Positions 5,890 through 33,089 are shown, counted from the stretch's first letter. The stretch is DNA of 37,339 nucleotides from a virus (IMGVR_UViG_2585427777_000002:1-37339), one strand, 5' to 3'. Made by a program: numbers and translations. Notes: generated by a model not told the origin, from the letters alone.

Positions 5890-5906
5890 ATTACCTTTCA
5901 GGTAAT
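5890..5906. promoter_or_regulatory. operator-like palindrome ATTACCTTTCAGGTAAT
   Basis: Perfect TTACC-N5-GGTAA; divergent region between the tailspike start and gene 5982. Confidence 0.6.
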
Positions 5907-5942
5907 TTGCAAAACGTGCTGGATAGCAAACAAATTATTTGT

Positions 5943-5962
5943 TACTGTATAAATATACAGTT
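5943..5962. promoter_or_regulatory. LexA (SOS) box TACTGTATAAATATACAGTT
   Basis: 19 of 20 positions match the enterobacterial LexA consensus TACTGT-N8-ACAGTA; lies 20 bp upstream of the ATG of gene 5982..6239 and overlaps a TATAAA -10-like hexamer. Confidence 0.65.
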
Positions 5963-5981
5963 ATTGCATGGAGAAGATAAG

Positions 5982-6239
5982 ATGCAGCAGTATCACTATC
6001 CACTGGAAGACGGATTTACCGAAAGGATTCACACGCCGGGAGGCGTCAGGTCACTGGTGGAGGGATCGCACTTGATGAAATTACTCCGGGATCTCGATAA
6101 GGATGGATTTAATGTCGATGGCCCACTTGCCGAACTGACTGCACTGATTAACTACGTCACCAGCTCACAGATGTCTATGCAGGATCTGCAAACACATCTC
6201 GACTATTGTGCCGAACAATTACGAAAACAAACCAGATAA
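5982..6239 (+). CDS. small protein homologous to the shared C-terminal domain of the two antirepressors; candidate SOS-controlled antirepressor
   Basis: 85 aa from ATG 5982 with GGAGAAG RBS; aligns by eye with the C-termini of 6553..7245 and 8253..8903 (HTPGGVRSLVEGSHLMKLL versus HSPSGVLGLTENSLLMNLL); LexA box immediately upstream. Confidence 0.6.
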   Translation: MQQYHYPLEDGFTERIHTPGGVRSLVEGSHLMKLLRDLDKDGFNVDGPLAELTALINYVTSSQMSMQDLQTHLDYCAEQLRKQTR

Positions 6240-6269
6240 GGTTTGCAATTACCAAATGGAGTGCTTATA

Positions 6270-6286
6270 TTTACCTTTGCGGTAAA
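6270..6286. promoter_or_regulatory. operator-like palindrome TTTACCTTTGCGGTAAA at the Bro-N antirepressor promoter
   Basis: Perfect TTACC-N5-GGTAA immediately after -35 TTGCAA (6243..6248), 17-bp spacer, -10 TATATT (6265..6270). Confidence 0.6.
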
Positions 6287-6552
6287 TTTACATCGCACTC
6301 CTCTTGTGCCATAGTAATCGGGCACTGGCAAAATCCAGTGCCGGGATTGGTCTCCCGGATTACTACAGAGGCACATATGCCGCATAAGCGGTTTTTTTAT
6401 GTGTAAAGCGCACCTATTCTATGGTGGGCTGTGTGGGGGCACCGAAAGGTGCGCCGGGTTCCTTTGTAGCCGGTAAGACCAACTCTGCACAGTTCACCAC
6501 CATCTGATTGGTCTCAGCGGTGGTGATTAACCTAACTACAAAGGTGATCGCT
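6287..6552 (+). promoter_or_regulatory. structured 5' leader with intrinsic terminator/attenuator upstream of the Bro-N antirepressor gene
   Basis: Helix AGTAATC...GATTACT enclosing hairpins GGCACTGG-caaaat-CCAGTGCC and CCGGGA-ttggtc-TCCCGG; hairpin plus T7 run at about 6377..6397; homologous copy in inverted orientation at 8904..9173 with compensatory stem changes. Confidence 0.5.
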
Positions 6553-7245
6553 ATGAATACCAAACCTTCCATCTTTTCCTTTGAGTCATCCTGCCAGATC
6601 CGTATGTTCATGATTGACGGAGAACCTTGGTTTGTCACCAAAGATGTGTGCAATGCTTTGAATATTGATGTTACACAAGCGAGAAAACTTGATAAAAAAG
6701 GCTGGAACAAAAAGGGGCTGTATTCAATACAGACCCCTGGTGGAATACAAGAACTATCCATCGTTTCAGAATCAGGTCTCTACATCCTTATTCTGCGTTG
6801 CAAAGAGGCAATGACTGAGGGAACGAGAGCATTCAGATTTCTTGAATGGGTTACAGGTGAGGTTCTTCCTCAGATCCGCCGCACCGGAAGTTACATTAAA
6901 AACTCGCTCCCGCAGGAAGAACGCATAAAGATGGTTGCCGACCAGGTAGCCAACGCCACGGCGTCAGCAGTAATGCAGGCGATGAAGATAGAGAACAAAA
7001 CCTACAGCGCCCCGCTGAAGCCCGGCTACCGCAGTTTGATTCACTCGCCGTCTGGTGTTCTCGGCCTGACGGAGAACTCACTGCTGATGAATTTGCTGAA
7101 CCAGTTACAGGAAGACGGGCATGACGTATCGGGCGCGGCGGCGGAACTGACCACCATGTTCTGCTACATCGTCGGTGTGAGTAAATGCCTGCGTGATATC
7201 CAGACTCACGCGGAGTACATCAACGACAAAGCAGGATTCTTCTGA
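6553..7245 (+). CDS. antirepressor with Bro-N N-terminal domain
   Basis: ATG 6553; Bro-N signature IRMFMIDGEPWFVTKDVCNALNI; C-terminal 80 aa nearly identical to the C-terminus of 8253..8903. Confidence 0.85.
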   Translation: MNTKPSIFSFESSCQIRMFMIDGEPWFVTKDVCNALNIDVTQARKLDKKGWNKKGLYSIQTPGGIQELSIVSESGLYILILRCKEAMTEGTRAFRFLEWVTGEVLPQIRRTGSYIKNSLPQEERIKMVADQVANATASAVMQAMKIENKTYSAPLKPGYRSLIHSPSGVLGLTENSLLMNLLNQLQEDGHDVSGAAAELTTMFCYIVGVSKCLRDIQTHAEYINDKAGFF

Positions 7246-7275
7246 CGGGCGGCGGCACAGGGATGTGCCTTTAAA
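7003..7275. repeat. left arm of about 270-bp inverted repeat (3' end of Bro-N antirepressor gene plus about 28 bp)
   Basis: Reverse complement matches 8225..8495 with only a handful of synonymous differences. Confidence 0.85.
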
Positions 7276-7417
7276 TAATTCTGTACAGATTGCAGACTGG
7301 GGGTGAATAGCGTACTATTACCTCACGGGTGATCCATAGCGATTAGGCACCGATACAGGAGGAGCCCACATGAGAAAATTTGACGAGCACGAAGGCGTTT
7401 AACATTCGGATAGTTCA

Positions 7418-7434
7418 TTTACCCTAATGGTAAA
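7418..7434. promoter_or_regulatory. operator-like palindrome TTTACCCTAATGGTAAA upstream of gene 7474
   Basis: Perfect TTACC-N5-GGTAA about 40 bp upstream of the start codon. Confidence 0.6.
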
Positions 7435-7473
7435 TCCCGCTTAAAGAAGCATCTATATATTATGAGGTGATGT

Positions 7474-31896: not shown

Positions 31897-31910
31897 AACC
31901 AGATTTGGTT
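31897..31910. promoter_or_regulatory. palindromic motif AACCAGATTTGGTT (second motif family)
   Basis: Third copy of the AACCA-N4-TGGTT class, adjacent to an imperfect operator at 31914..31931. Confidence 0.45.
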
Positions 31911-31913
31911 TTT

Positions 31914-31931
31914 TATTACCTTTGAGGTACG
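31914..31931. promoter_or_regulatory. imperfect operator-like site ATTACCTTTGAGGTACG
   Basis: Left half-site perfect, right half-site GGTAC. Confidence 0.4.
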
Positions 31932-31985
31932 AATAGATATGAAAAGACCGCCGGATGGCGGTCTACAGAGGGTTGTGGCTGGATA

Positions 31986-32216
31986 TCATGAGTAGAAGAA
32001 GTATGCCAGTTCTGCTTTTGAGCGCAGCCATTGTCTTGTTTTACAGGCTTTAAAAAGCCCATTCATCAATACCTTACCTGGCATTTTGCGCTTACCTGTT
32101 AAGTGAGTCTGGATATAGTGACTCGTCGTTCCGGCTTCCTGTGCGAAGGCTTCACGCTCATCCGGAGTAAGTGCAAGCCAGTGCTTTTTGAAATCGAAAT
32201 GTCCGTTATCGCTCAT
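31986..32216 (-). CDS. Cro-like small HTH regulator
   Basis: 76 aa divergent from the repressor gene; HTH-like TPDEREAFAQEAGTTSHYIQTHLTGKRK. Confidence 0.65.
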   Translation of the reverse strand: MSDNGHFDFKKHWLALTPDEREAFAQEAGTTSHYIQTHLTGKRKMPGKVLMNGLFKACKTRQWLRSKAELAYFFYS

Positions 32217-32251
32217 AGCTATTGCCTGATATTTATTTCAGATAATAAATA

Positions 32252-32316
32252 TTCACCCATAAGGTAACAAAAATCAAGGATAGTTACCTATGAGGTGCAT
32301 TTACCTGTTGGGTAAT
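32252..32316. promoter_or_regulatory. tripartite operator region between the cro-like and repressor genes (OR-like)
   Basis: Three sites: TTCACCCATAAGGTAAC (32252..32268, imperfect), GTTACCTATGAGGTGCA (32283..32299, imperfect), TTTACCTGTTGGGTAAT (32300..32316, perfect). Confidence 0.65.
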
Positions 32317-32370
32317 ATTGCTTTAAATTGAATCATCTACTGATTCATATATGAGGCGATTTTCCAGAAA

Positions 32371-32955
32371 ATGAAAAGTATCCAGGACGTCCGCAGGCAA
32401 AATCTCAACGACTTGATCGACCGTGAATTCAATGGTGTTCAGACGCGGATGGCAGAAAAACTTGGAACTCAGGCAAATCTGGTAAACCGCTGGGCTCTTG
32501 GCAAGAAGGTTATCGGCGACCAGGTTGCACGAAAAATTGAAGCTGCCGCCAATAAACCCCGTAACTGGCTTGATATTGATCGCTCGCTTTCTCAGGAGGG
32601 TTTTCAGCCTGTCGGCCCGAGCGATATAGGTCAGCTGGCGGCTCACAACCTGGAACGCTGGATGAGCGAAAGCCGCGACCTTTCAACGCAGGGAAAACTA
32701 CACCGCGCATCCGGCGTCGCCCAGGTGACAATCAGCCGCCTGTTAAACAATGAAGTCAGCGTTTCCATTTCCACCCTGGAGAATGTTGCATCCGCATTCG
32801 GGCGTCACGGCTATGAATTACTGATTCACCCGCACGACCCTGCGACTATCAACTATGATCGCTCGCGCTACGCATTGTTACCTGAAACAGAGAAGGCAAA
32901 GATCGAAAGTTACATTGAATTTGTCATCAACCAGAACGAAAAAAGAAAACAATAA
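32371..32955 (+). CDS. prophage repressor with two tandem XRE-type HTH domains and no peptidase domain
   Basis: 194 aa; two Cro/C1-type HTH-like segments (TRMAEKLGTQANLVNRWALGKK and LHRASGVAQVTISRLLNNEVSVS); no S24 Ala-Gly or Ser/Lys motifs seen; divergent from the cro-like gene. Confidence 0.7.
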   Translation: MKSIQDVRRQNLNDLIDREFNGVQTRMAEKLGTQANLVNRWALGKKVIGDQVARKIEAAANKPRNWLDIDRSLSQEGFQPVGPSDIGQLAAHNLERWMSESRDLSTQGKLHRASGVAQVTISRLLNNEVSVSISTLENVASAFGRHGYELLIHPHDPATINYDRSRYALLPETEKAKIESYIEFVINQNEKRKQ

Positions 32956-32975
32956 AATCATATTTTTCAGTAAGT

Positions 32976-32999
32976 AAGCCGCCTCATGGCGGCTTTTTT
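32976..32999 (+). terminator. rho-independent terminator after the repressor gene
   Basis: Stem AAGCCGCC/GGCGGCTT with loop TCAT followed by TTTTTT. Confidence 0.7.
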
Positions 33000-33011
33000 A
33001 TTGCCTATACG

Positions 33012-33089
33012 ATTACCTTATGGGTAATTTTTTAACTCATATCTATTGACATCAAACCAGATACGCATAATTATTACCTCAACGGTAAC
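33012..33089. promoter_or_regulatory. early-left promoter with two operators (OL-like)
   Basis: Perfect sites ATTACCTTATGGGTAAT (33012..33028) and ATTACCTCAACGGTAAC (33073..33089) flanking TTGACA (33046..33051) and a -10-like AATTAT/ATAATT. Confidence 0.65.

What the first reader, a model, noticed from the sequence alone, without database searches (positions are those of the whole stretch)
5890..33089. Genome-wide operator regulon: 12 perfect copies of ATTACC-N5-GGTAAT, all intergenic
Perfect TTACC-N5-GGTAA sites occur at 5890, 6270, 7418, 9174, 9760, 25062, 28270, 29950, 30012, 32300, 33012 and 33073, with imperfect copies at 31914, 32252 and 32283. A specific 10-position palindrome is expected well under once in 37 kb by chance. 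Every copy is intergenic and most sit at or just after -10-like hexamers. Three sites lie between the divergent cro-like and repressor genes and two flank the early-left promoter, as for lambda OR and OL, so the tandem-HTH repressor is the most likely ligand. The same site also sits in front of the antirepressor genes, the orphan cargo genes, the replication/nuclease block, the terminase operon and the tailspike. No N-like or Q-like antiterminator gene was recognised, so one repressor may hold most of the prophage silent directly.
Basis: partly seen in the sequence, partly recalled or inferred. Interest (0 to 1): 0.75.

Follow-up and report, generated by a model that had tools for sequence, protein, structure and literature searches.

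The report
Known repressor operators of ε15-like prophage
The repeated palindrome is real and is almost certainly the set of binding sites of this prophage's master repressor, but the same sites are already annotated in the related phage ε15 and the repressor family is already characterised, so it is an ordinary, known feature.

Summary
There are 12 perfect TTACC-N5-GGTAA sites (0.01 expected) plus 5 imperfect ones. All 17 lie in the 9.6% of the window that is non-coding.

The window is an E. coli prophage of genus Uetakevirus (ε15/phiV10/ZX5-like), running from the Rz lysis gene to the integrase. The public record of the type phage ε15 already marks seven copies of this palindrome as 'protein_bind, repressor, lysogeny'. 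These include the ones before the small terminase gene, the head operon and the tail fibre.

The 194-aa repressor is a full-length homologue of the crystallised SPC32H Rep (PDB 5D50). The window also encodes the SPC32H-type small antirepressor Ant behind a perfect LexA box.

The motif is conserved at orthologous places in six phages whose Reps are only 43-78% identical. It is absent from homologous isrK-C4-antirepressor cassettes in phages that lack Rep. A distant Pseudomonas cI with a related N-terminal domain is flanked by TTACC-N4-GGTAA.

Side observations:
- a second conserved palindrome, AACCA-N4-TGGTT, at the same promoters
- two P1 immI-like sRNA cassettes
- a tRNA-Arg
- an amber codon in the portal gene

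The parts
5890..5906 (.). Operator ATTACCTTTCAGGTAAT in the divergent tailspike (3015..5786, -) / ant (5982..6239, +) region
   Evidence: Orthologous to the ε15 site at 19895-19911, annotated protein_bind repressor.
5945..5960 (.). Perfect LexA box CTGTATAAATATACAG, 22 nt upstream of the ant start codon
5982..6239 (+). Small antirepressor Ant (85 aa), homologue of SPC32H Ant
   Evidence: PDB 5D50_E, E=2.7e-46
6270..6286 (.). Operator abutting the -35 of the isrK promoter (TTTACA-17-CATAGT, 6287-6315) and overlapping the -10 of an upstream promoter-like site (TTGCAA-17-TATATT, 6243-6271)
6322..7245 (+). Rep-controlled cassette: isrK sRNA (6322-6398), C4 antisense RNA (6417-6504) and a Bro-N antirepressor-like gene (6508..7245)
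7317..7333 (.). Imperfect operator ATTACCTCACGGGTGAT directly after TTGCAG-17-TACTAT
7418..7434 (.). Operator 40 nt upstream of cargo gene 7474..8109 (phrog_1349, function unknown)
8253..9138 (-). Inverted second cassette: isrK (9138-9062), C4 (9037-8953) and an AntA-family antirepressor gene (8903..8253)
9174..9190 (.). Operator of the inverted cassette, directly after the -10 of TTGATT-18-TATCAT (9218-9189, - strand)
9760..9776 (.). Operator 20 nt upstream of cargo gene 9796..10323 (phrog_21690)
25062..25078 (.). Operator between head-operon gene gp3 (24972..24766, -) and a rightward promoter-like site (TTGACA at 25041, or TAGACA-18-AATTAT) that faces tRNA-Arg at 25400-25476
   Evidence: Orthologous to the annotated ε15 site at 2931-2947.
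28252..28286 (.). Two abutting operators (28252-28268 imperfect, 28270-28286 perfect). They lie between a conserved terminator (28322-28305) with a conserved -10-like TACTAT and the terS start codon (28250, - strand).
   Evidence: Orthologous to the annotated ε15 site at 12-27.
29950..30028 (.). Operator pair 62 bp apart on two tandem leftward promoter-like sites: TTGATA-16-TAAAAT with the operator in the spacer, and TTGATT-17-TTTAAT with the operator after the -10. They lie ahead of DUF1064 gene 29947..29603.
   Evidence: Orthologous to the ε15 sites at 35907/35969.
31915..31931 (.). Conserved imperfect operator after the cro-like gene and its terminator, next to AACCA-N4-TGGTT and -35 TTGATC
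31986..32216 (-). Cro-like gene (76 aa, phrog_35 'transcriptional repressor'); possible second ligand of the operators
32252..32316 (.). OR region with three operators (32252-32268, 32283-32299, 32300-32316) between the cro-like and rep genes. The rightmost overlaps rightward promoter-like hexamers and the leftmost lies in the spacer of a leftward promoter-like site.
32371..32955 (+). Rep: 194-aa repressor with an N-terminal HTH DNA-binding domain, a middle HTH_3-like domain, a C-terminal tetramerisation/Ant-binding region and no peptidase S24 domain
   Evidence: PMC9986798
33012..33089 (.). OL region: operators 33012-33028 and 33073-33089, 61 bp apart, flanking and overlapping TTGACA-17-AATTAT (33046-33074), which reads into the recE/recT early-left operon

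Best explanation
The window is an integrated ε15/phiV10-like (Uetakevirus) prophage of E. coli. TTACC-N5-GGTAA is the operator of its lysogeny repressor Rep (32371..32955), a non-cleavable HTH protein of the SPC32H Rep family.

Two N-terminal HTH domains read the two TTACC half-sites, whose centres are 10 bp (one helical turn) apart. Published work on SPC32H describes Rep as a tetramer with two DNA-binding heads. That fits the recurrent operator pairs at 17-18 bp (OR, terS) and 61-62 bp (OL, DUF1064 promoter).

Most operators overlap the -10/+1 region or the -35/-10 spacer of a promoter-like site. Bound Rep would therefore block initiation at about eight separate transcription units:
- early left
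- early right
- the post-cro/replication unit
- the DUF1064/nin-like block
- terS-terL
- the head operon / tRNA region
- tailspike / ant
- four accessory units (two isrK-C4-antirepressor cassettes and two cargo genes)

Induction works through the small antirepressor Ant (5982..6239). Its gene sits behind a LexA box, so DNA damage leads to Ant synthesis, then Rep release, then simultaneous opening of all units.

Shown here: the sites, their statistics, their positions, their conservation, and the homologies. Inferred: actual Rep binding, tetramer bridging, and which promoter-like sites are real.
For: 1. Twelve perfect sites against 0.01 expected. All 17 sites lie in the 9.6% of the window that is non-coding.

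2. The ε15 RefSeq record annotates 'protein_bind, repressor, lysogeny' at 12-27, 2931-2947, 19895-19911, 32479-, 32554-, 32616- and 35906-35922. These are the same TTACC-N5-GGTAA.

3. Rep matches PDB 5D50_A (SPC32H Rep) over its full length, E=3.5e-42. Ant matches 5D50_E, E=2.7e-46. A perfect LexA box precedes ant. Pfam finds HTH domains only and no S24 peptidase.

4. There are 9-11 perfect sites at orthologous places in ε15, SPC32H, ZX5, Tyrion and Klebsiella BUCT711, with fewer than 1 expected at up to one mismatch in each. In the OR and OL alignments the operators and the -35/-10 elements are invariant while the flanks diverge.

5. The Reps are only 43-78% identical, but the helix-3 segment NLVNRW is invariant.

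6. Natural swap: the isrK-C4 cassette carries the site in the window (twice) and in a Klebsiella prophage that has a Rep homologue. Homologous cassettes of VT2-Sakai, Gifsy-1 and SfV lack it.

7. Pseudomonas phage PseuP_224 has a cI whose N-terminal domain is 39% identical to Rep's but whose C-terminal region differs. It has TTACC-N4-GGTAA four times, only flanking cI.

8. P22 has one perfect copy.

9. In ZX5, whose Rep is 99.5% identical, Rep overexpression abolished free phage and cut holin and endolysin transcripts by more than 99.9% (PMC9782041).

10. SPC32H Rep is described as binding palindromic DNA as a tetramer and being released by Ant (PMC9638917; PMC9986798).
Against: - No binding experiment exists for this phage.
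- The ε15 features are predictions. The primary papers (Kropinski 2007; Kim & Ryu 2013; Kim et al. 2016) could not be opened, so I could not confirm which operator sequences were tested in vitro.
- The cro-like protein has an equally invariant HTH and sits in the same immunity module, so conservation cannot separate the two ligands.
- At terS there is only a weak promoter-like element (conserved TACTAT, poor -35).
- At the isrK cassettes the operator abuts the -35 rather than the +1 of the homology-supported promoter. The mode of action may therefore differ between sites.
- The lysis cassette has no operator in this window, although ε15 has one.
Confidence: 0.85

Rival explanations
1. The palindrome is mainly the target of the cro-like protein (31986..32216) or another phage regulator rather than Rep. 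Alternatively, Rep and Cro share it as in lambda, with the dispersed copies serving Cro-type shut-off during lytic growth.
For: The cro-like protein belongs to phrog_35 'transcriptional repressor'. Its AGTTSHYIQTHLT segment is invariant across the same phages. It always travels with Rep, so every comparative argument applies to it as well.
Against: PseuP_224 keeps the TTACC half-site together with a Rep-like N-terminal domain. SPC32H Rep is the protein described as binding palindromic operators (PMC9638917). Rep overexpression alone silences the lytic genes of ZX5. Shared use by both proteins is not excluded; exclusive use by Cro is unlikely.
Confidence: 0.1
2. Only the OL and OR sites are true transcriptional operators. 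The dispersed copies act otherwise, for example as anchors for Rep tetramer or octamer bridging and looping, as roadblocks to read-through, or as sinks that buffer Rep concentration.
For: SPC32H Rep has a p53-like tetramerisation ('TetDloop') domain associated with DNA looping, with two domain pairs about 100 Å apart (PMC9986798). The terS pair lies just after a terminator and lacks a good -35. Some single sites have only weak promoter-like matches.
Against: Seven perfect sites have a -10-like hexamer in exactly the same register (last T = first T of TTACC), and one more perfect site (30013) fills a -35/-10 spacer exactly. The terS -10-like TACTAT is conserved from E. coli to Salmonella phages. 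Each site precedes a separate gene block that follows a terminator or lies on the opposite strand.
Confidence: 0.15
3. The motif is unrelated to immunity, for example a host-factor site, a methyltransferase or restriction target, a packaging or replication signal, or an RNA hairpin.
For: The P22 replication origin contains similar sequences (TTACCAGATCGGTAA, TCACCAAATCGGTAA) within the annotated rep_origin. The window encodes an MT-A70 methylase.
Against: The strictly intergenic, promoter-registered distribution does not fit a methylation or restriction target. The 5-bp AT-rich stem is too weak for an RNA structure and occurs in both gene orientations. The sites are scattered over 27 kb, unlike an origin or pac site. 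The motif tracks Rep-encoding phages, not host species (E. coli, Salmonella, Enterobacter, Klebsiella).
Confidence: 0.03

Closest known systems
Phage ε15 gp38 repressor-binding sites (RefSeq NC_004775 'protein_bind, repressor'; Kropinski et al. 2007, Virology 369:234)
   Same: The core palindrome TTACC-N5-GGTAA is identical. The genus and gene order are the same. The sites occupy the same places: before terS, before the head operon, between gp19(ant) and the tail fibre, at OL, and before the post-replication block.
   Different: The Rep proteins are only about 43% identical. The ε15 record annotates 7 of its 11 perfect sites and omits the OR pair. The window has extra sites on accessory cassettes that ε15 lacks, and it lacks the ε15 site upstream of the lysis genes.
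SPC32H Rep-Ant lytic switch (PDB 5D4Z/5D50; Kim & Ryu 2013; Kim et al. 2016)
   Same: Full-length Rep homologue, Ant homologue, and a LexA box before ant. SPC32H has 10 perfect copies of the same motif at orthologous places.
   Different: Rep is about 41-43% identical to SPC32H Rep, while Ant aligns closely over 83 residues. The window adds several other antirepressor-family genes (Bro-N, AntA, truncated P22_AR_N) under Rep operators.
Phage P1 C1 repressor with many dispersed operators, and the P1 immI operon (c4 antisense RNA, icd, ant) (own knowledge; Lobocka et al. 2004)
   Same: It works alike: one repressor with operators scattered over the genome controls many separate operons directly. 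One of these is an operon that starts with a C4 antisense RNA and ends in an antirepressor. The window has two Rfam C4 hits in that arrangement.
   Different: There is no sequence relationship between C1 and Rep. P1 operators are asymmetric 17-mers, whereas these are palindromes. P1 is a plasmid prophage.
Lambda/P22-type CI-Cro switch with tripartite OL/OR
   Same: Divergent rep and cro-like genes are separated by three operators, there is a second cluster on the other side of rep, and the operators overlap promoter-like sites.
   Different: Rep has no RecA-dependent self-cleavage domain. No N or Q gene was found in the ORFs scanned. Operators extend to late and accessory operons.
Pseudomonas phage PseuP_224 cI
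   Same: It has a related N-terminal HTH domain (39% identity over residues 4-68) and the same TTACC/GGTAA half-sites.
   Different: The spacer is N4, not N5. The C-terminal region is longer and unrelated to Rep's (I read it as LexA/S24-like from the sequence; no domain scan was run). The sites occur only at OL/OR, and the phage has a Q-like antiterminator gene.

Membership tests
Uetakevirus (ε15-like) Rep operator set | Palindrome TTACC-N5-GGTAA, many copies, far above chance | tested here: met
   12 perfect against 0.01 expected. ε15 has 11, SPC32H 10, ZX5 10, Tyrion 9 and BUCT711 9.
Uetakevirus (ε15-like) Rep operator set | Sites at the places annotated as repressor-binding in ε15 (terS, head operon, ant/tail fibre, OL, post-replication block) | tested here: met
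   Window sites 28271, 25063, 5891, 33013/33074 and 29951/30013 correspond to the ε15 features at 12, 2931, 19895, 32554/32616 and 35906.
Uetakevirus (ε15-like) Rep operator set | Genome belongs to the genus (gene order and nucleotide similarity) | tested here: met
   97-98% identity over 84-85% of a 6-kb query to ZX5, HEMP4 and TL-2011b, and 55% coverage in phiV10. Gene order matches.
SPC32H-type Rep/Ant switch | Rep homologue with an N-terminal DNA-binding domain plus a C-terminal tetramerisation/Ant-binding region | tested here: met
   5D50_A E=3.5e-42 over residues 1-191; 5D4Z (Rep 92-198) E=3.6e-20
SPC32H-type Rep/Ant switch | Repressor lacks a RecA-dependent autocleavage (S24) domain | tested here: met
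   Pfam finds only HTH_3/HTH_26/LacI-type HTH hits.
SPC32H-type Rep/Ant switch | Small (~86 aa) Ant encoded divergently from the tailspike | tested here: met
   5982..6239; 5D50_E E=2.7e-46; same position as SPC32H ant
SPC32H-type Rep/Ant switch | LexA box at the ant promoter | tested here: met
   CTGTATAAATATACAG at 5945-5960, perfect to CTGT-N8-ACAG, 22 nt before the ATG. LexA binding itself was not tested.
SPC32H-type Rep/Ant switch | Rep binds the operators as a tetramer and is released by Ant | not testable with these tools
   Known for SPC32H only through secondary descriptions (PMC9638917; PMC9986798).
Lambda-type CI/Cro/N/Q circuit | Repressor inactivated by RecA-stimulated self-cleavage | tested here: not met
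   No S24 domain; an Ant/LexA arrangement is present instead.
Lambda-type CI/Cro/N/Q circuit | N and Q antiterminators driving delayed-early and late transcription | tested here: not met
   No such family appeared in Pfam/PHROG scans of the 36 ORFs tested. Only PerC-like and AlpA-like regulators were found. Small ORFs were not searched exhaustively.
P1 C1 / immI system | C1-family repressor and asymmetric ATTGCTCTAATAAATTT-type operators | tested here: not met
   Rep is an HTH_3/SPC32H-type protein and the operators are palindromic. Only the C4-RNA-antirepressor cassette architecture is shared.

The most novel reading that the evidence does not exclude
The dispersed operators may be more than a list of independent on/off switches.

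- Rep tetramers or octamers, with two DNA-binding heads and a p53-like looping domain, could bridge operator pairs (17-18 bp, 61-62 bp) and distant single sites. The whole prophage would then be held as a looped, silenced domain.
- Mobile modules could be 'plugged into' the resident immunity simply by acquiring one operator next to their promoter. These modules are the two P1 immI-like isrK-C4-antirepressor cassettes, two orphan genes and a tRNA-Arg. Induction of this prophage would then release antirepressors that could cross-induce other prophages.
- A second conserved palindrome, AACCA-N4-TGGTT, sits just upstream of the -35 at several of the same promoters and before the lysis genes. It would be the site of an as yet unidentified second regulator (an activator or Cro) that orders expression after Rep is removed.
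Probability: 0.25. Interest if true: 0.5.

Novelty: already known. Interest (0 to 1): 0.2.

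Why it matters
The finding confirms that ε15-like podoviral prophages, which are common in E. coli, Salmonella, Klebsiella and Enterobacter, are silenced by one antirepressor-sensitive repressor acting directly at many promoters. 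They do not use a lambda-style N/Q antitermination cascade.

This is useful for annotation: the operator is a reliable marker of transcription-unit starts in this genus. It is also useful for engineering phiV10-type reporter phages. It does not change current understanding, because the site set is already in the ε15 record and the Rep/Ant mechanism is published.

The modest added value here is threefold:
- the natural 'operator swap' on shared isrK-C4 cassettes
- the half-site conservation in a distant Pseudomonas cI
- the second, unexplained palindrome

Tried and rejected
1. I tried to open the primary papers (Kropinski 2007, DOI and PMC2698709; Kim & Ryu 2013, PMC3807360; Kim et al. 2016, PMC4983836). 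None is held. The exact published operator consensus and any EMSA data therefore rest on the GenBank features and on secondary descriptions.

2. A full-text search for ATTACC/GGTAAT strings returned only noise. Searches for phiV10, epsilon15, SPC32H and Uetakevirus with 'operator' or 'repressor' found no genome-wide binding study.

3. LexA boxes at the other antirepressor cassettes: none. Only the ant box at 5945 is perfect and intergenic. Those cassettes appear to be Rep-controlled only.

4. An operator upstream of the lysis cassette: absent in the window and in ZX5, although present in ε15, SPC32H and Tyrion.

5. A strong sigma-70 promoter at the terS operators: not found. There is only a conserved TACTAT with a poor -35.

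6. IHF as the ligand of the second palindrome: rejected because it does not match WATCAANNNNTTR.

7. Methylation target, RNA hairpin and origin-iteron readings: rejected on the distribution of the sites.

8. Loci fetched by accession were at first not available to scripts, so cross-genome counts were made with the DNA search instead.

Full report
**What is in the sequence**

The pattern TTACC-N5-GGTAA occurs 12 times without mismatch, at 5891, 6271, 7419, 9175, 9761, 25063, 28271, 29951, 30013, 32301, 33013 and 33074. Dinucleotide-preserving shuffles give a mean of 0.01. The longer ATTACC-N5-GGTAAT of the finding's title is perfect at only four of these sites.

One-mismatch copies lie at 7318, 28253, 31916 and 32253, and a two-mismatch copy lies at 32284. 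A PWM built from the 12 sites recovers 16 sites of at least 10 bits, against 0.64 expected in Markov simulations. An unbiased count of all 5-Nx-5 palindromes puts this one far ahead of any other: 12 copies, against at most 2-4 for any palindrome in simulated sequence.

I transferred a gene map from the ZX5, phiV10 and PGAP annotations of close relatives. On that map 9.6% of the window is non-coding, and all 17 sites lie wholly within it (P about 6e-13 for the 12 perfect sites).

**What the window is**

Megablast of 28000-34000 finds Escherichia phages vB_EcoP_ZX5, HEMP4 and TL-2011b at 97-98% identity over 84-85% of the query. phiV10 and others match with less coverage. All are Uetakevirus, the ε15-like temperate podoviruses.

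Gene order matches those records. The window runs from the Rz-like lysis gene (128..610) through the tailspike, an accessory region, tail and head genes, terL/terS, a nin-like block, replication genes, cro-like/rep and the recE/recT early-left operon. It ends inside the integrase. This is the order expected of an integrated prophage.

**The feature is already annotated in the type phage**

The RefSeq record of ε15 carries seven 'protein_bind, repressor, lysogeny' features:
- 12-27, before terS
- 2931-2947, before gp3 and the head operon
- 19895-19911, between gp19 and the tail fibre
- 32479, 32554 and 32616, beside the repressor gene
- 35906-35922, before the post-replication block

A motif search shows these are the same TTACC-N5-GGTAA. 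ε15 has 11 perfect copies in all. SPC32H has 10, ZX5 10, Enterobacter phage Tyrion 9 and Klebsiella phage BUCT711 9. In each genome fewer than one match is expected even allowing one mismatch, and the sites lie at orthologous places.

Alignments of the OR and OL intergenic regions of six phages show the operators, the -35 TTGAC and the -10 as invariant blocks in otherwise diverged DNA. The same holds for the terS leader, where a terminator, a -10-like TACTAT and two abutting operators are conserved.

**The ligand**

The 194-aa product of 32371..32955 aligns over its full length with the crystallised repressor of Salmonella phage SPC32H (5D50_A, E=3.5e-42). It has HTH domains but no S24 peptidase domain. 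Across the genus the Reps are only 43-78% identical, yet the helix-3 segment NLVNRW is invariant. That fits an invariant half-site.

The ORF at 5859..6239 contains, from its internal ATG at 5982, an 85-aa homologue of the SPC32H antirepressor Ant (5D50_E, E=2.7e-46). A perfect LexA box, CTGTATAAATATACAG, lies at 5945-5960.

Secondary sources describe SPC32H Rep as a tetramer that binds palindromic sites and is released by tetrameric Ant (PMC9638917). They also describe an N-terminal DNA-binding domain, a middle dimerisation domain and a p53-like tetramerisation/looping domain (PMC9986798). In ZX5, whose Rep is 99.5% identical to the window's, Rep overexpression abolished free phage and reduced holin and endolysin transcripts by more than 99.9% (PMC9782041).

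**Independent comparative tests of the assignment**

1. Natural operator swap. Rfam finds two isrK sRNA + C4 antisense RNA cassettes, each ahead of an antirepressor-family gene: 6322-6504 ahead of Bro-N, and the inverted copy 9138-8953 ahead of AntA. Homologous cassettes exist in VT2-Sakai, Gifsy-1 and SfV. In the alignment, the shared promoter and isrK align in all of them. The TTACC-N5-GGTAA site abutting the -35 is present only in the two window copies and in a Klebsiella prophage that also encodes a Rep homologue.

2. Distant relative. Pseudomonas phage PseuP_224 has a cI whose N-terminal domain is 39% identical to Rep's, while the rest of the protein is unrelated. From its sequence I read that C-terminal part as LexA/S24-like, but no domain scan was run. 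TTACC-N4-GGTAA occurs four times in that genome, only on the two sides of cI, and the phage has a Q-like gene. So the half-site follows the N-terminal domain family. Dispersal to late operons is a Uetakevirus trait that goes with the absence of Q.

3. Negative control. P22 has one perfect copy, inside its annotated replication origin.

**How the sites relate to promoters**

A hexamer-PWM scan and the consensus scanner give two recurrent registers.

In the first register, a -10-like hexamer ends on the first T of TTACC, so the operator covers about -8 to +9:
- 6271: TTGCAA-17-TATATT
- 9175, minus strand: TTGATT-18-TATCAT
- 33074: TTGACA-17-AATTAT
- 29951: TTGATT-17-TTTAAT
- 7318: TTGCAG-17-TACTAT
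- 25063
- 9761 and 5891, more weakly
- the terS pair, with TACTAT

In the second register the operator fills the -35/-10 spacer:
- 30013: TTGATA-16-TAAAAT
- 32253: TTGTTA-17-TATTAT, or the conserved TTGATT

At the isrK cassettes, the promoter supported by homology (TTTACA-17-CATAGT, with isrK starting 7 nt after it) has the operator directly upstream of its -35. The mode of action there may therefore differ.

Sites come as abutting pairs (17-18 bp: OR, terS) or as pairs 61-62 bp apart (OL; 29951/30013). The same spacings recur in the other genomes. This fits a repressor with two DNA-binding heads, but that step is inference.

**Mechanism proposed**

Rep occupies all operators in the lysogen and blocks initiation at about eight separate units. 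SOS inactivation of LexA allows Ant synthesis. Ant strips Rep from the DNA, and all units open at once.

No N- or Q-like gene was seen in the 36 ORFs scanned. Only PerC-like and AlpA-like regulators were found in the early-left operon.

I put 0.85 on 'these are Rep operators'. The main uncertainties are:
- whether the cro-like protein shares the sites, since its HTH is equally invariant
- whether every dispersed site is a true promoter operator rather than a bridging anchor or roadblock

**Comparison and novelty**

The window is a member of the ε15/SPC32H Rep-Ant system. Every defining feature that can be tested in silico was met.

It works like phage P1's C1 regulon in having many dispersed operators, one of which heads a c4-antirepressor operon (own knowledge of P1). 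It is unrelated to P1 in sequence. It differs from lambda in lacking repressor self-cleavage and N/Q.

Because the same palindrome at the same places is already annotated as the repressor site in ε15, and the repressor family is published, I rate the finding 'already known' and of low interest.

**Limits**

The three primary papers could not be read. What they report about operator consensus and binding assays is cited only from the database record, from secondary descriptions and from memory. Promoter assignments are consensus matches, not mapped starts.

Noticed in passing
window 1987-2000, 9217-9230, 31897-31910 (perfect); 5851, 6230, 25011, 9301 (1 mismatch): A second palindrome, AACCA-N4-TGGTT (core CCAWATNYGGTT), gives 10 hits at up to 1 mismatch against 1.27 expected. 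It lies just upstream of, or overlapping, the -35 of several Rep-controlled promoter-like sites, and also upstream of the lysis genes, where there is no Rep operator. It is conserved at orthologous places in ε15, SPC32H, Tyrion, ZX5 and BUCT711 (alignments). It is not among the features annotated in ε15. The ligand is unknown; it could be an activator or Cro.
   Followed up: partly
window 6322-6504 (+) and 9138-8953 (-): There are two Rfam isrK sRNA + C4 antisense RNA cassettes in inverted orientation, each ahead of an antirepressor-family gene (Bro-N 6508..7245; AntA 8903..8253). This is the architecture of P1 immI and of the Gifsy-1 IsrK region. Homologous cassettes in VT2-Sakai, Gifsy-1 and SfV lack the Rep operator.
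   Followed up: yes
window 25400-25476 (+): A tRNA-Arg (anticodon TCT) is found by ARAGORN and Rfam. It lies downstream of the rightward promoter-like site and operator at 25034-25078 and upstream of a strong terminator at 25520-25555. The antisense ORF 25406..25657, annotated as a hypothetical protein in ZX5 and forming phrog_4647, overlaps the tRNA and may be a spurious gene family.
   Followed up: partly
window 24440-24442 (- strand): The portal/head-tail adaptor gene (24751..23072) has an in-frame amber codon (TAG) at codon 104, where ZX5 has Glu. Without a suppressor the prophage would be defective for virion assembly, unless this is a sequencing error.
   Followed up: partly
L014 (Pseudomonas phage PseuP_224) 10906-10945 and 11768-11820: A cI with a Rep-like N-terminal domain is flanked by four TTACC-N4-GGTAA sites. 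The half-site is the same and the spacer is one base shorter. The sites occur only at OL/OR, in a phage with a Q-like gene.
   Followed up: yes
L012 (P22) 32861-32899: The annotated P22 replication origin contains TTACCAGATCGGTAA and TCACCAAATCGGTAA, which resemble the Uetakevirus operator. This is probably coincidental.
   Followed up: no
L002 (ε15) 26882-26896; L004 26960; L006 28568; L005 8026 (outside the window): A conserved one-mismatch site, TTACCYTAAAGGTAT, lies just upstream of the integrase gene in ε15, SPC32H, Tyrion and ZX5. It may be a weak Rep site controlling int, or part of attP.
   Followed up: no
L002 (ε15) 24704, 33341, 33358, 35969: The ε15 record annotates only 7 of its 11 perfect sites. 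The OR pair between the repressor gene and gp39, the site before the lysis genes, and the second site of the 35907/35969 pair are unannotated.
   Followed up: yes
window 2106-2909 (+): A low-GC (0.35) cargo gene sits between the lysis genes and the tailspike, with a weak hexapeptide-transferase hit. It occupies the position of the O-antigen acetyltransferase of phiV10 and is probably a serotype-conversion gene. It has no Rep operator.
   Followed up: no
window 9337-9735 (+): A P22_AR_N antirepressor N-terminal domain ORF of only 132 aa. The equivalent gene is flagged as a pseudogene missing its C-terminus in E. coli TUM9803.
   Followed up: no
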